A DNA stretch of 64,000 nucleotides, taken from Escherichia phage vB_VIPECOMC06. The notes under the pieces are model-generated. The model was not told the DNA's origin, ran no database searches, and saw only the letters and a program-made list of their open reading frames with translations. A program made the position numbers and the translations under genes. Shown here in pieces: positions 7,836 to 50,513 of the stretch (positions within the stretch are counted from its first letter, which is position 1; each line of letters opens with the position of its first letter). Where the stretch lies: sequence record PQ416618.1; one strand, given 5' to 3'.

Positions 7836-7886
7836 GTTTACTTCTCCTCTAGATGTGTTACTATAGACCTGTCAACTAGAGGAGAA
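7836..7886 (+). promoter_or_regulatory. early promoter cassette with SD-pairing inverted repeat (regB)
   Basis: GTTTAC, TGTTACTAT; TCTCCTCTAG (7843-7852) complementary to CTAGAGGAGA (7877-7886). Confidence 0.55.
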
Positions 7887-7892
7887 ATCAAA

Positions 7893-8351
7893 ATGACTAT
7901 CAATTCTGACGTTTTTATCCGCCGTAATAAACTCCGTCGAATCTTTGAAACGGAGTTCCGCAAAATAAATGCCGGTATAAAAGATGCTGCAAAGTCTCTT
8001 GGAATACCAGGCTTTCATATCAAGTATTCTCAACATCTCTTAGATCGTGCTATCCAGAGAGAAATAGATGAGAACTACGTTTTTGAATTATTTCGTAAAG
8101 TAAAAAATCATGTTAAAGAAGTTGCAGAATTTTTATCAATGCCGGCACGTCCAGATGTTGATGAAGATTTTGTCGAAGGTGTTGAATATCGCCCAGGCCG
8201 TTTAGAAATAACTGACGGAAATCTTTGGTTAGGACTTACAGTTTGTCGCGAAAATCCAGCATTCAAAATGAAGACTCTTCAATGCAGAATGGCTATTATT
8301 AACAGTAAACGACTACCAGGAAAAGCTTCTAAAGCAGTGATTAAAATCTAG
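7893..8351 (+). CDS. regB: RegB-like sequence-specific endoribonuclease
   Basis: MTINSDVFIRRNKLRR...HLLDRAIQREIDE...EYRPGRLEITDGNLWLG resembles T4 RegB as recalled; size ~152 aa; correct locus between denV and tk. Confidence 0.7.
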   Translation: MTINSDVFIRRNKLRRIFETEFRKINAGIKDAAKSLGIPGFHIKYSQHLLDRAIQREIDENYVFELFRKVKNHVKEVAEFLSMPARPDVDEDFVEGVEYRPGRLEITDGNLWLGLTVCRENPAFKMKTLQCRMAIINSKRLPGKASKAVIKI

Positions 8352-8359
8352 AGGTAAAC

Positions 8360-8902
8360 ATGAGAAAAGCACTACTCGCTGGTCTATTTGCTCTTTCATT
8401 ATCAGCACATAGCTCCGAGCATACTTTTAGTAATGTCCAACTCGATAACTTGAATTATGCTTATCAGTTTGGGGAACAGTTTTCTAAGGACGGAAAATTT
8501 AAAACGCATGAAAATATGCATAAGAAAGGACTTGGATACATAATGGCCGCAATACTATGGCAGGAATCATCTGCCGGTATTAATCTTAAAGATAAGAAAG
8601 GTCACCATGCGTATGGAATGTTCCAAAATTATCTACCAACAATGAGGGCAAGAATTAACCAGCTTGGTTATAATATGACTGATGCCCAAATTAAGAAAAT
8701 GCTATCTAAGCGGTCTAATTCAGCCAGATGGGCTTATATCGAATTTTCTTATTGGTTAAATATACATAACGGGGATATAAGAAAAGCTATATCCTCATAT
8801 AATGCGGGATGGAAGACGAGTGCTGGAAGTAAATATGCTTCTGAAGTCCTAGAAAAGGCTAATTACCTTAAATCAAACAAACTACTGGAAATAAAAGAAT
8901 GA
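8360..8902 (+). CDS. secreted protein, possible lytic transglycosylase-like
   Basis: Signal peptide MRKALLAGLFALSLSAHS; QESS...GxxQ motif region; family assignment tentative. Confidence 0.45.
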   Translation: MRKALLAGLFALSLSAHSSEHTFSNVQLDNLNYAYQFGEQFSKDGKFKTHENMHKKGLGYIMAAILWQESSAGINLKDKKGHHAYGMFQNYLPTMRARINQLGYNMTDAQIKKMLSKRSNSARWAYIEFSYWLNIHNGDIRKAISSYNAGWKTSAGSKYASEVLEKANYLKSNKLLEIKE

Positions 8903-9246
8903 CCAAAATGTTGGCTTTAATAGTTGGCTTGGTTTCATTTAACGCTCTTGCTAATACTACATATACTGATGTAACGGAGTATACAAACAGAACAGCGTCT
9001 GATTATTGTGGTAAAAGTCAAGAGTGTAAAGTAGATTTTTCACAAAAATTGTTATATGCGTATAAAGACGGAGAAAAAGATGGGGCGTCTAGTAGGTTCA
9101 AGGCGTCTACCTTAATTAAAAGATACTATAAAAAATGGCAAATATTAGAATGCTCGGTGGCGGAACCTAAAGATAAGGCAGCATGCAATTCTATGGTGGA
9201 CCGTCTAGTTGACTCTTATACTAGAGGACTTGCAGCAAGTGATTAA
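8899..9246 (+). CDS. secreted protein (115 aa)
   Basis: Signal peptide MTKMLALIVGLVSFNALA; Cys-containing mature part. Confidence 0.45.
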   Translation: MTKMLALIVGLVSFNALANTTYTDVTEYTNRTASDYCGKSQECKVDFSQKLLYAYKDGEKDGASSRFKASTLIKRYYKKWQILECSVAEPKDKAACNSMVDRLVDSYTRGLAASD

Positions 9247-9706
9247 AAACTATATCAAGGGCGATATTGTCGCCCTGTTTTCTAAAGGTAATAATATTGC
9301 TCATGGGTGTAATTGTTTTCATACAATGGGCGCTGGTGTGGCAGGACAATTAGCAAAGGCTTATCCAAAAATTCTAGAAGCCGATAAACTTCAAACCGAA
9401 TTCGGAGACGAGTCTAAACTCGGGACTTATTCGGTTTATGAAAAATATTTTAAGACCCATAAAGCTTATTGCTTTAATCTTTATACACAGTTTGAGCCTG
9501 GACCTAATTTTGAGTACTATGCTTTAATGAATTGTATAATAGAATTAAATGAATTCGGAAAGAATAAGATAACAAAGCCTGTAATTTATATGCCAAGAAT
9601 TGGTGCAGGTATCGGTGGCGGAAACTGGGATGTCATCGAAGAGATTTTAGATACGTATTCCACTAAACTAGAAATTGTGATTGTTGATTGGGAACCATTA
9701 TTATGA
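9209..9706 (+). CDS. macro-domain protein (ADP-ribose binding/processing)
   Basis: Macro-domain-like core NNIAHGCNCFHTMGAGVAGQLAKAYP and C-terminal GAGIGGGNW; start uncertain (overlaps upstream ORF by 38 nt). Confidence 0.55.
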   Translation: MTLILEDLQQVIKNYIKGDIVALFSKGNNIAHGCNCFHTMGAGVAGQLAKAYPKILEADKLQTEFGDESKLGTYSVYEKYFKTHKAYCFNLYTQFEPGPNFEYYALMNCIIELNEFGKNKITKPVIYMPRIGAGIGGGNWDVIEEILDTYSTKLEIVIVDWEPLL

Positions 9707-11117: not shown

Positions 11118-11420
11118 ATGGCCTTAAGAGCGATAGCTGTCATGGCGATGCTGGGGTTTTTTGCAGCAACAACTCCTATCGTTGGTACTGCGTACACTGA
11201 CCCATATTTTGATAACTTTATGGAATCAGGGATTAAAAACGTATATACTTTGTTTGAAATTCAAAATGTCGAGAATTCTGAAAAATTCTATAAGTATATG
11301 GCAAAGCATTACAAAAATAGCCCCTGTGATGATGCATTTGAATGTCATGAACAAGGCATAAAAACTGCTAGACAATTTGCCGAGTTCATGAAAATAAAAT
11401 TAGAGCCTACATCTATCTAA
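11118..11420 (+). CDS. hypothetical protein with N-terminal hydrophobic segment (100 aa)
   Basis: SD AGGAGG; N-terminus MALRAIAVMAMLGFFAATTPIVGTA is signal-peptide-like. Confidence 0.4.
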   Translation: MALRAIAVMAMLGFFAATTPIVGTAYTDPYFDNFMESGIKNVYTLFEIQNVENSEKFYKYMAKHYKNSPCDDAFECHEQGIKTARQFAEFMKIKLEPTSI

Positions 11421-14559: not shown

Positions 14560-14823
14560 ATGAAAAAATTGGTAATTGGTTTATTCGCAGTAATGATGGC
14601 ATTCTCTGTTGGTGCTACCACGGGTGCAGCCGGCGGTAACCAGACTTCTGGGCCTTCTAATGGTTCGGTAAATGCATCACATTCTCAGGGTATTGAGAAC
14701 ATTAAATCAAGCTATATTAATAGCACGGCCGGACAAGCAACTGAAGCATGGTCAAAGGGACGAGTAGTTACTCGCTCCGTATTCTGTGATATGCCTAATT
14801 ATGTTGCTAAGTGCGATAAGTAA
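14560..14823 (+). CDS. small secreted protein (87 aa)
   Basis: Signal peptide MKKLVIGLFAVMMAFSVGA; followed by GGGACC-TTCG-GGTCCC stem-loop. Confidence 0.45.
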   Translation: MKKLVIGLFAVMMAFSVGATTGAAGGNQTSGPSNGSVNASHSQGIENIKSSYINSTAGQATEAWSKGRVVTRSVFCDMPNYVAKCDK

Positions 14824-49477: not shown

Positions 49478-49846
49478 ATGAAAAAATTAATCGCTTTAGC
49501 AATGGTATTTGGATTAACCGGATGTGGTGCCCATGGCTTTATCCCTAATAACGTCGGCCAATTGATTTACAATCCGAATGTTAAACAGTATGACCAACCT
49601 AAAGTTGAAGTGGAAGACCCGGTTACTGTAGGTAATCGAATGATTCAAGCTGATGCCCATGCTCAACGTTATCGTGACTCTGATACTGTAGCATTGTCAA
49701 AAGAACAACGCGTTAAAGAACATTGTCTACAGGCTACTGAAATCGCATTCATTCGCTATGTTGAAACAACTGGTAAAGAGCCTACCCAGAAACAAATCGC
49801 AAATAACTACGTCCAGTGTATTGAACGTTTAAACAAATTTAACTAA
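49478..49846 (+). CDS. predicted lipoprotein (122 aa)
   Basis: Signal peptide with lipobox LTGC (MKKLIALAMVFGLTGC). Confidence 0.5.
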   Translation: MKKLIALAMVFGLTGCGAHGFIPNNVGQLIYNPNVKQYDQPKVEVEDPVTVGNRMIQADAHAQRYRDSDTVALSKEQRVKEHCLQATEIAFIRYVETTGKEPTQKQIANNYVQCIERLNKFN

Positions 49847-50219: not shown

Positions 50220-50513
50220 ATGAAAAAGTTATCATTGGCAGCAATCTTACTTGCAGTATCATGTGCACCGGCTCCAGTTACGGCAGGTTATGATAAAGAC
50301 CTCTGTGAGTGGTCAATGACTGCAAATCAAGAAGATGTTGAACAACAAATCTTCTCTGATATCATGAACATCACTAAACGAGACCGTCCTAATATGGTTA
50401 ATAAAGTTGTTGAACAACTTAAGTCTGGCGGTATCATGCAGTACAATTATGTTTTGTATTGTGACCCTAATTTCGATAACAAAGATATCGTAACCGAAAT
50501 CACAGGTGAATAA
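50220..50513 (+). CDS. sp: spackle-like periplasmic protein (97 aa)
   Basis: Signal peptide MKKLSLAAILLAVSCAPAPVTAG; mature part GYDKDLCEWSMT...YNYVLYCD; size and locus (41-61 interval) as T4 sp. Confidence 0.45.
   Translation: MKKLSLAAILLAVSCAPAPVTAGYDKDLCEWSMTANQEDVEQQIFSDIMNITKRDRPNMVNKVVEQLKSGGIMQYNYVLYCDPNFDNKDIVTEITGE

What the first reader, a model, noticed from the sequence alone, without database searches (positions are those of the whole stretch)
8360..9246. Two adjacent exported proteins between regB and the macro-domain gene
The ORFs at 8360 and 8899 have clear signal peptides. The first has a QESS-containing region that might indicate a lytic-transglycosylase-like fold. These are periplasm-targeted early proteins of unknown role.
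Basis: inference. Interest (0 to 1): 0.35.

Follow-up and report, generated by a model that had tools for sequence, protein, structure and literature searches.

The report
Exported phage wall-cutter and its partner
These two overlapping early genes are the known T4 genes vs.1 and vs: the first is an exported cell-wall-cutting (lytic transglycosylase-type) enzyme, and the second, long labelled a modifier of a cytoplasmic tRNA synthetase, looks instead like a secreted, disulfide-stapled partner protein.

Summary
ORFs 8360-8902 (180 aa) and 8899-9246 (115 aa) overlap by ATGA. Each starts with a Sec-type signal peptide, a pattern seen in only 10 of 166 window ORFs.

They are not unknown genes. The window comes from an RB69-like T4-type phage (Mosigvirus), and these are the orthologues of T4 vs.1 and vs.

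The lytic-transglycosylase reading of ORF1 is supported:
- All 33 relatives tested hit Pfam SLT.
- E69-S, G86-x-x-Q89 and Y147-N-x-G150 are invariant.
- E69 aligns with the catalytic Glu of E. coli Slt70.
- A confident AlphaFold model matches only GH23 enzymes at the top of the list.

This resemblance was already published in 2006.

ORF2 is annotated everywhere as "valyl-tRNA synthetase modifier", which implies a cytoplasmic job. Its family nevertheless always carries an export signal; in CC31-like phages this is a lipoprotein signal. It also has four invariant cysteines on a four-helix bundle.

A Vs homologue lies downstream of vs.1 in 64 of 70 viral contigs, and abuts or overlaps it in 56 of those.

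Most likely this is a conserved periplasmic two-gene module. The ValRS label is either misassigned or incomplete. The genes are known; the topology conflict is the new, testable point.

The parts
8351..8355 (+). Shine-Dalgarno-like GAGGT for vs.1, overlapping the regB stop codon
   Evidence: Read directly from the sequence; 4 nt before the ATG at 8360.
8360..8902 (+). vs.1 orthologue: exported GH23/SLT-type lytic transglycosylase-like protein, 180 aa (precursor 20.6 kDa, predicted mature 18.7 kDa, pI 9.6, no Cys)
   Evidence: phrog_600 E 3.7e-67; 84% identity to T4 Vs.1; AF2 pLDDT 89.7; Foldseek top hits are GH23 enzymes; all 33 relatives hit Pfam SLT.
8360..8413 (+). Predicted Sec signal peptide of Vs.1 (residues 1-18, MRKALLAGLFALSLSAHS|SE)
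   Evidence: Rule-based scan; conserved as a pattern in 32/33 relatives; lower pLDDT (63-66) than the body.
8564..8572 (+). Catalytic motif I: Glu69-Ser70-Ser71 (the 'QESS' stretch)
   Evidence: E69 and S71 are invariant in 33 relatives. hhalign places WQESS on RQES of E. coli Slt70, i.e. on precursor residue 505, which is Glu478 of the mature enzyme.
8615..8626 (+). SLT motif II: Gly86-Met-Phe-Gln89 (counterpart of G-L-M-Q)
   Evidence: G86 and Q89 invariant; aligned with SGLMQ of Slt70.
8798..8809 (+). SLT motif III: Tyr147-Asn148-Ala-Gly150 (A/S-Y-N-x-G)
   Evidence: Y147, N148 and G150 invariant.
8899..8902 (+). ATGA overlap of the vs.1 stop with the vs start (translational coupling)
   Evidence: Sequence. 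In 56 of 64 loci that hold both genes, vs starts within -8 to +7 nt of the vs.1 stop codon.
8899..9246 (+). vs orthologue (annotated 'valyl-tRNA synthetase modifier'): predicted secreted four-helix, four-Cys protein, 115 aa (mature 97 aa, 11.0 kDa)
   Evidence: phrog_1256 E 5e-35; 67% identity to T4 Vs; PF26829 on all relatives; AF2 pLDDT 87.3 with helices 20-37, 41-64, 69-85, 90-114.
8899..8952 (+). Predicted Sec signal peptide of Vs (residues 1-18, MTKMLALIVGLVSFNALA|NT)
   Evidence: pLDDT is 50-55 for residues 1-20. The signal is replaced by a lipobox (ALSGC) in CC31-like phages.
9007..9027 (+). First invariant Cys pair, Cys37 and Cys43, flanking the helix1-helix2 turn
   Evidence: Invariant in 37 relatives. 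Present with C-x5/6/10-C spacing in all 55 full-length distinct Vs sequences from IMG/VR.
9151..9186 (+). Second invariant Cys pair, Cys85 and Cys96, flanking the helix3-helix4 turn
7893..8351 (+). regB (flank): first gene of the tightly packed early block regB-vs.1-vs-macro
   Evidence: Pfam REGB_T4 E 6.5e-69; the same order is found in T4, VR26 and F48.
9239..9706 (+). Macro-domain gene (flank): orthologue of T4 tk.4/adfM. GTG start overlaps the end of vs by 8 nt.
   Evidence: Pfam Macro E 3.4e-6; annotation of SA79RD; T4 tk.4 named anti-DarT2 factor AdfM in bioRxiv 10.1101/2025.11.20.689424.

Best explanation
The two ORFs are the Mosigvirus orthologues of T4 vs.1 and vs. They form a conserved, translationally coupled pair of early proteins, and both are sent through the Sec pathway to the periplasm.

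Vs.1 is a divergent GH23/SLT-family enzyme with an intact single-glutamate active site. Its most likely activity is cutting host murein glycan strands as a lytic transglycosylase.

Vs is a small, basic four-helix bundle, stapled by two disulfides once it is in the oxidising periplasm. In one lineage it is lipid-anchored. It most likely acts there together with Vs.1, as a binding partner that restrains, targets or tethers the enzyme, rather than as a cytoplasmic modifier of valyl-tRNA synthetase.

Shown here: orthology, gene coupling, signal-peptide pattern, fold, motif conservation and the conserved gene pairing.

Inferred: actual export and cleavage, disulfide formation, enzymatic activity, the physical or functional link between the two proteins, and the biological purpose (early remodelling of the wall of the infected cell).
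For: Identity:
- The region is 98-99% identical to many Mosigvirus genomes.
- The gene order regB-vs.1-vs-tk.4 is the same as in T4.
- PHROG matches have E 3.7e-67 and 5e-35.

Vs.1 as an SLT enzyme:
- All 33 relatives hit Pfam SLT, best E 1.3e-7.
- E69, S71, G86, Q89, Y147, N148 and G150 are invariant.
- E69 aligns with the Slt70 catalytic Glu.
- The AF2 model has pLDDT 89.7.
- Its 22 best PDB matches are all GH23 enzymes: the Ralstonia GH23 chitinase, MltD, Slt/Slt70 and the phi6 P5 lysin. Probability is 0.75-1.00, at least 0.95 for the first 19.

Export:
- A signal-peptide pattern is present in 32/33 and 35/37 relatives despite sequence drift.
- Only 10 of 166 window ORFs show it.
- The Vs signal switches to a lipobox in CC31-like phages.
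- Four Cys are invariant and sit at the two helix-turn-helix ends.
- His-tagged T4 Vs made in the cytoplasm is insoluble (PMC8076793).

Pairing:
- A Vs homologue lies downstream in 64/70 IMG/VR loci with Vs.1.
- It abuts or overlaps in 56 of these.
- This includes Acinetobacter phages, where Vs is only detectable by profile (hhalign 91.6%, E 8e-7).

Phenotype: in T4 transposon data, vs and vs.1 insertions are both about 7- to 29-fold rarer than insertions in neighbouring genes in liquid LB. Both fall further in M9 (log2FC -2.19 and -0.87).
Against: - The window protein itself scores below Pfam's SLT gathering cut-off (18.8 vs 21.3 bits).
- Foldseek E-values are only 0.01-0.4 with TM about 0.5.
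- A profile search of PDB sequences finds no transglycosylase.
- No signal-peptide predictor, no localisation data and no enzymology were available.
- Classical genetics and biochemistry (recalled from my own knowledge, not readable here) tie the vs locus to modification of cytoplasmic ValRS in vivo.
- Nothing here shows that Vs touches Vs.1. Gene adjacency in T4-type early regions is generally tight.
- The similar transposon phenotype of vs.1 could be polarity on vs.
- Vs has no structural relative among known lysozyme or transglycosylase inhibitors.
Confidence: 0.6

Rival explanations
1. Vs is what its name says: the tau factor that binds host valyl-tRNA synthetase in the cytoplasm. Its hydrophobic N-terminus is not, or only partly, used for export. 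Its position after vs.1 reflects only the tight packing of T4 early genes.
For: - The annotation is uniform across hundreds of genomes.
- T4 vs is the most depleted gene in minimal medium, which the authors link to amino-acid or tRNA economy.
- From my own knowledge, not verified here: vs mutants were isolated by loss of ValRS modification and mapped to this region. The purified factor was about 10 kDa.
Against: - An export signal is conserved in every full-length family member.
- One lineage carries a lipobox, which has no meaning for a cytoplasmic protein.
- Four invariant Cys are placed to staple helix hairpins.
- Cytoplasmic expression of T4 Vs gives inclusion bodies.
- The roughly 10 kDa size fits the signal-cleaved form (11.0 kDa) better than the 13.1 kDa precursor. 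That would imply the purified factor had itself been exported.
- I could find no accessible paper showing that this particular ORF encodes tau.
Confidence: 0.25
2. Both proteins are exported, but Vs acts independently of Vs.1. For example, it could act against a host periplasmic enzyme or a superinfecting phage, as Spackle does against the gp5 lysozyme.
For: - T4-type phages make several small early periplasmic proteins with separate jobs. Spackle (50220-50513) and RI (11118-11420) are in this window (PMC7677548 and PMC8385771 listed).
- In Slopekvirus-like genomes, vs lies 0.5-1.2 kb from vs.1.
- In M9, vs is depleted more than vs.1.
Against: - The genes abut or overlap in 56 of 64 loci, across subfamilies as distant as E. 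coli and Acinetobacter phages.
- All 64 loci in which Vs was found also hold Vs.1, but those loci were selected for Vs.1, so this says little.
- There is no similarity to Spackle or RI.
Confidence: 0.25
3. Vs.1 has the GH23 fold but is not a lytic transglycosylase. It could be a hydrolytic goose-type lysozyme or chitinase-like enzyme, or a non-catalytic murein-binding protein.
For: The best Foldseek hit is a GH23 chitinase, and goose-type lysozyme appears weakly in the sequence search. GH23 contains both hydrolases and transglycosylases.
Against: The three family-1 transglycosylase motifs, including the catalytic Glu, are invariant. No second conserved acidic residue follows E69 where goose-type lysozymes have their auxiliary Asp residues (alignment; the comparison with goose lysozyme rests on my own knowledge).
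Confidence: 0.12

Closest known systems
Bacteriophage T4 Vs.1 (NP_049725; phrog_600)
   Same: Orthologue: 84% identity, same length, same signal peptide, same position between regB and vs.
   Different: Nothing material. T4 Vs.1 itself has no experimentally shown activity as far as I could find.
Family-1 lytic transglycosylases with the SLT domain (Pfam PF01464, CAZy GH23), e.g. E. coli Slt70, P. aeruginosa Slt and MltD, phage phi6 P5
   Same: Lysozyme-like helical fold. Catalytic Glu-Ser at the end of a helix, plus G-x-x-Q and Y-N-x-G motifs. Periplasmic location.
   Different: A minimal single domain of about 160 residues with no superhelical, LysM or lipid anchor. Very divergent sequence: below the Pfam cut-off for this protein, with no PDB hit by sequence. 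Made by a virulent phage early in infection, not as an endolysin or a virion enzyme.
Bacteriophage T4 Vs, 'valyl-tRNA synthetase modifier' (NP_049724; phrog_1256; PF26829)
   Same: Orthologue: 67% identity, 115 aa, same four Cys, same conserved C-terminal SMVDRLVDSY-x-RGL, same position.
   Different: The name implies a cytoplasmic ValRS-binding protein. The sequence features of the whole family predict a secreted, disulfide-bonded protein.
T4 Spackle (Sp), a small early periplasmic protein that inhibits the gp5 tail lysozyme
   Same: Early expression, cleavable signal peptide, small helical Cys-containing periplasmic protein that binds a murein-cleaving enzyme (PMC7677548). A copy is in this window at 50220-50513.
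   Different: No detectable sequence or profile similarity to Vs. Spackle's target comes from a superinfecting virion, whereas Vs is co-expressed with its presumed partner.
Bacterial proteinaceous lysozyme and transglycosylase inhibitors (Ivy, MliC/PliC, PliG, PliI, LprI/DUF1311)
   Same: Small periplasmic or lipoprotein factors with disulfides that control murein-cleaving enzymes. This is the functional analogy for one reading of Vs.
   Different: No significant fold or sequence match. The only such entry in the Vs fold search is a DUF1311 protein at E 4.2, probability 0.06. Pfam scans of all 37 relatives gave nothing.

Membership tests
SLT-domain lytic transglycosylase (Pfam PF01464 / GH23, family 1) | Lysozyme-like alpha-helical fold | tested here: met
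   AF2 pLDDT 89.7, pTM 0.83. The 22 best Foldseek PDB hits are all GH23 enzymes, with probability at least 0.95 for the first 19. E-values are only 0.011-0.44 and TM about 0.45-0.52.
SLT-domain lytic transglycosylase (Pfam PF01464 / GH23, family 1) | Catalytic glutamate followed by serine (E-S motif) | tested here: met
   E69 and S71 are invariant in 33 relatives down to 39% identity. hhalign aligns WQESS with RQES of Slt70, and E69 falls on precursor residue 505 (Glu478 of the mature enzyme). That Glu478 is the catalytic residue is established knowledge, not tested here.
SLT-domain lytic transglycosylase (Pfam PF01464 / GH23, family 1) | Motifs G-L-M-Q and A-Y-N-x-G | tested here: met
   G86-M-F-Q89 and S146-Y147-N148-A-G150 are present; G86, Q89, Y147, N148 and G150 are invariant.
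SLT-domain lytic transglycosylase (Pfam PF01464 / GH23, family 1) | Score above Pfam's curated gathering threshold | tested here: inconclusive
   The window protein scores 18.8 bits against a cut-off of 21.3, E 1.3e-3. All 33 relatives match at E <= 0.1, best 1.3e-7, and many carry a precomputed PF01464 call.
SLT-domain lytic transglycosylase (Pfam PF01464 / GH23, family 1) | Non-hydrolytic cleavage of MurNAc-GlcNAc bonds giving 1,6-anhydro-MurNAc | not testable with these tools
   Needs purified protein and muropeptide analysis.
Sec-exported protein with a type I signal peptide | Positive n-region, 8-16 residue uncharged hydrophobic core, small residues at -3/-1, neutral or acidic early mature region | tested here: met
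   Both ORFs pass a rule-based scan. The pattern is conserved in 32/33 and 35/37 relatives. SignalP or DeepTMHMM were not available, and cleavage was not shown.
T4 Vs family (phrog_1256 / PF26829) | Sequence homology and synteny with T4 vs | tested here: met
   phrog_1256 E 5e-35; 67% identity to T4 Vs; same position after vs.1.
Valyl-tRNA synthetase modifier (function attached to the Vs family) | Resides in the cytoplasm, where ValRS is | tested here: not met
   This is a prediction only. An export signal is present in all full-length members, a lipobox in CC31-like members, and four invariant Cys are placed for disulfides.
Valyl-tRNA synthetase modifier (function attached to the Vs family) | Binds ValRS and changes its physical properties | not testable with these tools
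   No complex prediction or assay was available. The original papers were not readable here.
Known proteinaceous inhibitors of murein-cleaving enzymes (Spackle, Ivy, MliC/PliC, PliG, LprI) | Fold or sequence similarity to a characterised inhibitor | tested here: not met
   No Foldseek PDB hit has E < 0.9. BFVD returns only the protein's own family. hhalign against Spackle gives probability 3.9%. Pfam scans of 37 members found nothing consistent.

The most novel reading that the evidence does not exclude
The ORF family that every T4-type genome annotates as 'valyl-tRNA synthetase modifier' is not the cytoplasmic tau factor. It is instead a secreted (in some lineages lipid-anchored), disulfide-stapled partner of the phage's own periplasmic lytic transglycosylase Vs.1. 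The pair would form a previously unrecognised early envelope-remodelling module that matters for phage fitness, especially in minimal medium. The true ValRS modifier, if it exists as a separate protein, would then be encoded elsewhere.
Probability: 0.4. Interest if true: 0.6.

Novelty: already known. Interest (0 to 1): 0.38.

Why it matters
As a gene finding this is ordinary. Identical or near-identical copies are deposited in hundreds of phage genomes, and the transglycosylase resemblance of vs.1 has been in print since 2006.

What matters is the mismatch uncovered on the way. A functional name used for about 800 phage records, a PHROG family and a Pfam family rests on a cytoplasmic activity. 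Every member of the family has the hallmarks of an exported, disulfide-bonded protein that is genetically welded to an exported murein-cleaving enzyme.

T4 vs has just been reported as the most strongly medium-dependent fitness gene of T4. Knowing whether it acts on translation or on the envelope therefore changes how that phenotype is read. The question can be settled with simple experiments on strains that already exist.

Tried and rejected
- A profile search of PDB sequences with the Vs.1 alignment found no transglycosylase. It returned only chance metacaspase and methylase hits, with goose lysozyme at E 1.4.
- NCBIfam has no model for either protein.
- The local Pfam copy has no model for Vs. 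PF26829 appears only in precomputed tables.
- Fold searches with the Vs model found nothing outside its own family in PDB or BFVD. The idea that Vs resembles a known lysozyme inhibitor was therefore dropped as a membership claim. A DUF1311 hit at E 4.2 was judged meaningless.
- Spackle or RI as paralogues of Vs (suggested by a shared 'TxYTD' start of the mature part) was rejected by hhalign.
- A single-sequence search for Vs in 1.8 billion representatives found only 7 proteins, showing a narrow family. Profile iteration on fetched loci was needed to reach the Acinetobacter and Slopekvirus forms.
- The classical papers on the vs gene and the T4 genome review could not be read. Five full-text searches found no paper that discusses the signal peptide of Vs or documents how the ORF was assigned.
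- The transposon data were examined as a test of a toxin-antidote relation between Vs.1 and Vs. They cannot discriminate, because insertions in vs.1 may be polar on vs.
Full report
**What is there.** On the + strand, ORF1 runs 8360-8902 (180 aa) and ORF2 runs 8899-9246 (115 aa). ORF1 follows the regB stop by eight bases, with GAGGT placed four bases before its ATG. The ORF2 ATG overlaps the ORF1 TGA as ATGA. The upstream gene is regB (Pfam REGB_T4, E 6.5e-69). The downstream gene has a macro domain (E 3.4e-6).

**Where the window comes from.** The 2-kb stretch is 98-99% identical to many Escherichia and Shigella phages of the genus Mosigvirus (RB69-like, Straboviridae).
- In those records, and in T4 itself, the gene order is regB, vs.1, vs, tk.4 (macro domain), tk.3, tk.2, tk, rI.1, rI.
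- ORF1 matches phrog_600 (E 3.7e-67) and is 84% identical to T4 Vs.1.
- ORF2 matches phrog_1256, 'valyl tRNA synthetase modifier' (E 5e-35), and is 67% identical to T4 Vs.
- The two 'proteins of unknown role' are therefore the orthologues of two named T4 genes.

**Signal peptides.** Both N-termini have a positive n-region, an uncharged hydrophobic core and a small-x-small site: MRK/ALLAGLFALSLSA/HS|SE and MTK/MLALIVGLVSFN/ALA|NT.
- A fixed rule applied to all 166 ATG-ORFs of at least 60 aa in the window flags ten. These include the known exported proteins RI (11118-11420) and Spackle (50220-50513).
- The pattern, though not the sequence, is kept in 32 of 33 Vs.1 relatives and 35 of 37 Vs relatives. 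The misses are wrong or truncated starts.
- In both AlphaFold models the first ~20 residues have low confidence and lie outside the fold.
- No dedicated predictor was available, so export and cleavage after residue 18 are predictions.

**Vs.1 is an SLT/GH23-type enzyme.**
- The window protein alone is just under Pfam's SLT cut-off (18.8 vs 21.3 bits). All 33 relatives scanned hit SLT, the best at 1.3e-7.
- A profile alignment to the C-terminal domain of E. coli Slt70 is weak in score. It nevertheless places WQESS on RQES and YGMFQ on SGLMQ, so E69 falls on Slt70 precursor residue 505. That is Glu478 of the mature enzyme, its catalytic residue by established knowledge.
- The AlphaFold model is confident (pLDDT 89.7, pTM 0.83).
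- Its 22 best PDB matches are all GH23 proteins: the Ralstonia GH23 chitinase, MltD, Pseudomonas Slt, E. coli Slt70 and the phi6 P5 lysin. Probabilities are near 1, but E-values are modest (0.011-0.44) and TM is about 0.5.
- Sequence-profile search of the PDB finds nothing useful. This is a very divergent, minimal (about 160-residue) member.
- None of this is new in kind. A 2006 comparison of T4-like genomes already reported the marginal SLT match of vs.1 in six of six phages and cited earlier PSI-BLAST results (PMC1524935). Several databases already name relatives 'transglycosylase SLT domain-containing protein'.
- The family is large, at 2060 phage records, and extends to Ackermannviridae and Felixounavirus.

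**Vs does not look like a cytoplasmic protein.**
- The family is narrow: 7 representatives among 1.8 billion proteins by single-sequence search, 44 clusters by profile, and about 800 phage records.
- Thirty-seven relatives share four invariant cysteines (C37, C43, C85, C96) and a nearly invariant C-terminal SMVDRLVDSY-x-RGL.
- The model is a confident four-helix bundle (pLDDT 87.3; helices 20-37, 41-64, 69-85, 90-114). The two Cys pairs flank the helix1-2 and helix3-4 turns. This is the arrangement expected for hairpin-stapling disulfides of secreted helical proteins.
- It has no informative structural neighbour in the PDB or among predicted viral structures outside its own family.
- It has no Pfam or NCBIfam match in the local libraries, and no relation to Spackle or RI.
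- Predicted mature sizes are 10.99 kDa here and 11.05 kDa in T4.

**The pair is conserved.** I fetched 70 IMG/VR loci that encode a Vs.1 relative and searched them with an iterated Vs profile.
- Sixty-four have a Vs homologue downstream on the same strand.
- In 56 of these the vs start lies within -8 to +7 nt of the vs.1 stop.
- In eight Slopekvirus-like genomes it lies 0.5-1.2 kb downstream.
- Six loci lack it: Aeromonas Biquartavirus-type phages and two contigs of about 310 kb.
- The Acinetobacter forms are too diverged for BLAST, but they align to the Vs profile with all four Cys in register (hhalign 91.6%, E 8e-7).
- Every full-length Vs in this set has a hydrophobic N-terminus and four Cys with C-x5/6/10-C and C-x8/10-C spacing.
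- In CC31-like (Karamvirus) phages the AXA site is replaced by a lipobox, A-L-S-G-C. Exchange between type I and lipoprotein signals is what exported proteins do, and it has no meaning for a cytoplasmic one.

**The conflict with the annotation.** The name 'valyl-tRNA synthetase modifier' goes back to work of the 1960s-70s on a small T4 factor that binds host ValRS. It is cited as Muller and Marchin 1975 and 1977 in PMC8076793.
- I could not read those papers or the T4 genome review.
- Five full-text searches found no accessible paper that shows this ORF encodes the factor or that comments on its signal peptide.
- From my own memory, unverified, the factor was about 10 kDa and the gene was mapped genetically to this region.
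- If the size is right, it fits the signal-cleaved form better than the 13.1 kDa precursor. That would itself imply passage through the membrane.
- Two recent observations fit either view. N-terminally His-tagged T4 Vs is insoluble when made in the cytoplasm (PMC8076793). T4 vs is the most depleted gene when a transposon library is competed in M9-glucose instead of LB, and a clean deletion plaques poorly on M9 (bioRxiv 10.1101/2025.11.20.689424).

**The transposon table in detail.**

| Gene | Mean count, LB | Mean count, M9 | log2FC | Significance |
|---|---|---|---|---|
| vs | 26.6 | 5.0 | -2.19 | adjusted p 0 |
| vs.1 | 22.6 | 11.9 | -0.87 | p 0.0055, adjusted 0.155 |
| regB | 178.6 | 403.0 | +1.17 | p 0.049, adjusted 0.80 |
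| tk.4 | 289.6 | 275.0 | -0.07 | p 0.86, adjusted 1.0 |
| vs.3 | 652.1 | 626.2 | -0.06 | p 0.91, adjusted 1.0 |
| vs.4 | 265.2 | 262.3 | -0.02 | p 0.97, adjusted 1.0 |

Both genes thus carry a similar fitness cost, and both get worse in minimal medium. This is what a shared pathway predicts. It is also what polarity of vs.1 insertions on a translationally coupled vs would give, so it does not decide the matter.

**Most likely mechanism.**
- Shown: two coupled early genes, both with export signals. The first has an intact SLT active site and fold. The second is a Cys-stapled helical protein that travels with the first across T4-type phages.
- Inferred: soon after infection both are secreted. 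Vs.1 cleaves murein glycan strands in a limited way, since the cell must stay intact until holin-triggered lysis. Vs binds it to restrain, direct or (in the lipoprotein forms) tether it.
- Confidence: about 0.9 for orthology, export and the SLT fold. About 0.4-0.5 for a direct Vs-Vs.1 functional link.
- The main rival is that Vs really is the cytoplasmic ValRS modifier (about 0.25). A second rival is that Vs is periplasmic but acts on something else (about 0.25).

**Verdict.** The genes are already known and catalogued, so the finding as written is ordinary. The added value is a documented, testable clash between a decades-old functional label and the topology predicted for the whole family.

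Noticed in passing
window 9239-9706: The macro-domain gene after vs is the orthologue of T4 tk.4. A 2025 preprint (10.1101/2025.11.20.689424) names it AdfM, an anti-DarT2 factor. Its start here is most likely GTG 9239, overlapping vs by 8 nt. The ATG at 9326 used in one GenBank record would cut off the conserved GDIV...AHGCNC part of the domain.
   Followed up: partly
window 9258-9276: A perfect 8-bp GC-rich hairpin followed by GUUUUCU lies 12 nt after the vs stop, inside the first codons of the macro-domain gene. It folds at -13 kcal/mol, z -3.5, and 0 of 200 shuffles fold as well. It could be an intrinsic terminator or attenuator, or an RNA-stability element, separating regB-vs.1-vs from the downstream genes.
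   Followed up: partly
window 7842-7886: A long stem (CUUCUCCUCUAG...CUAGAGGAGAA, -17.3 kcal/mol, z -2.9) lies just upstream of regB and sequesters a GGAG sequence. It is annotated as a terminator in phage SA79RD. GGAG is the RegB cleavage motif, so it may bear on regB autoregulation.
   Followed up: no
window 50220-50513, 49478-49846, 14560-14823: Other exported early proteins are present in the window. One is a Spackle orthologue (MKKLSLAAILLAVSCAPAPVTAGYDKDLCEWSM...). One is a lipoprotein-like ORF with an LTGC lipobox. One is an 87-aa ORF with a signal peptide and a Gly/Ala/Thr-rich start.
   Followed up: no
L006 (Acinetobacter phage AB-Navy1) 1438-3284: In this phage vs.1 and vs are followed directly by two more ORFs with signal or anchor sequences (141 aa and 99 aa) and then rI. 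This makes an uninterrupted run of five envelope-targeted genes.
   Followed up: no
L033 3541-3798 and L048 3549-3876 (IMG/VR contigs): Two phages carry damaged vs genes. One is an 85-aa internal-deletion form that keeps the signal peptide and the last two Cys (also seen in phage vB_EcoM_005). The other is a CC31-type gene split into two ORFs. So vs can be lost or degraded while vs.1 stays intact.
   Followed up: no
GenBank records hit: Annotation noise around these genes. vs.1 is variously labelled 'leucine aminopeptidase, subunit E, domain 1', 'endoribonuclease RegB domain-containing protein', 'C-type lysozyme/alpha-lactalbumin family protein' and 'putative RNA endonuclease'. vs is often shortened to 'valyl-tRNA synthetase', and at least one paper then reads it as a phage-encoded synthetase (PMC10698182).
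   Followed up: partly
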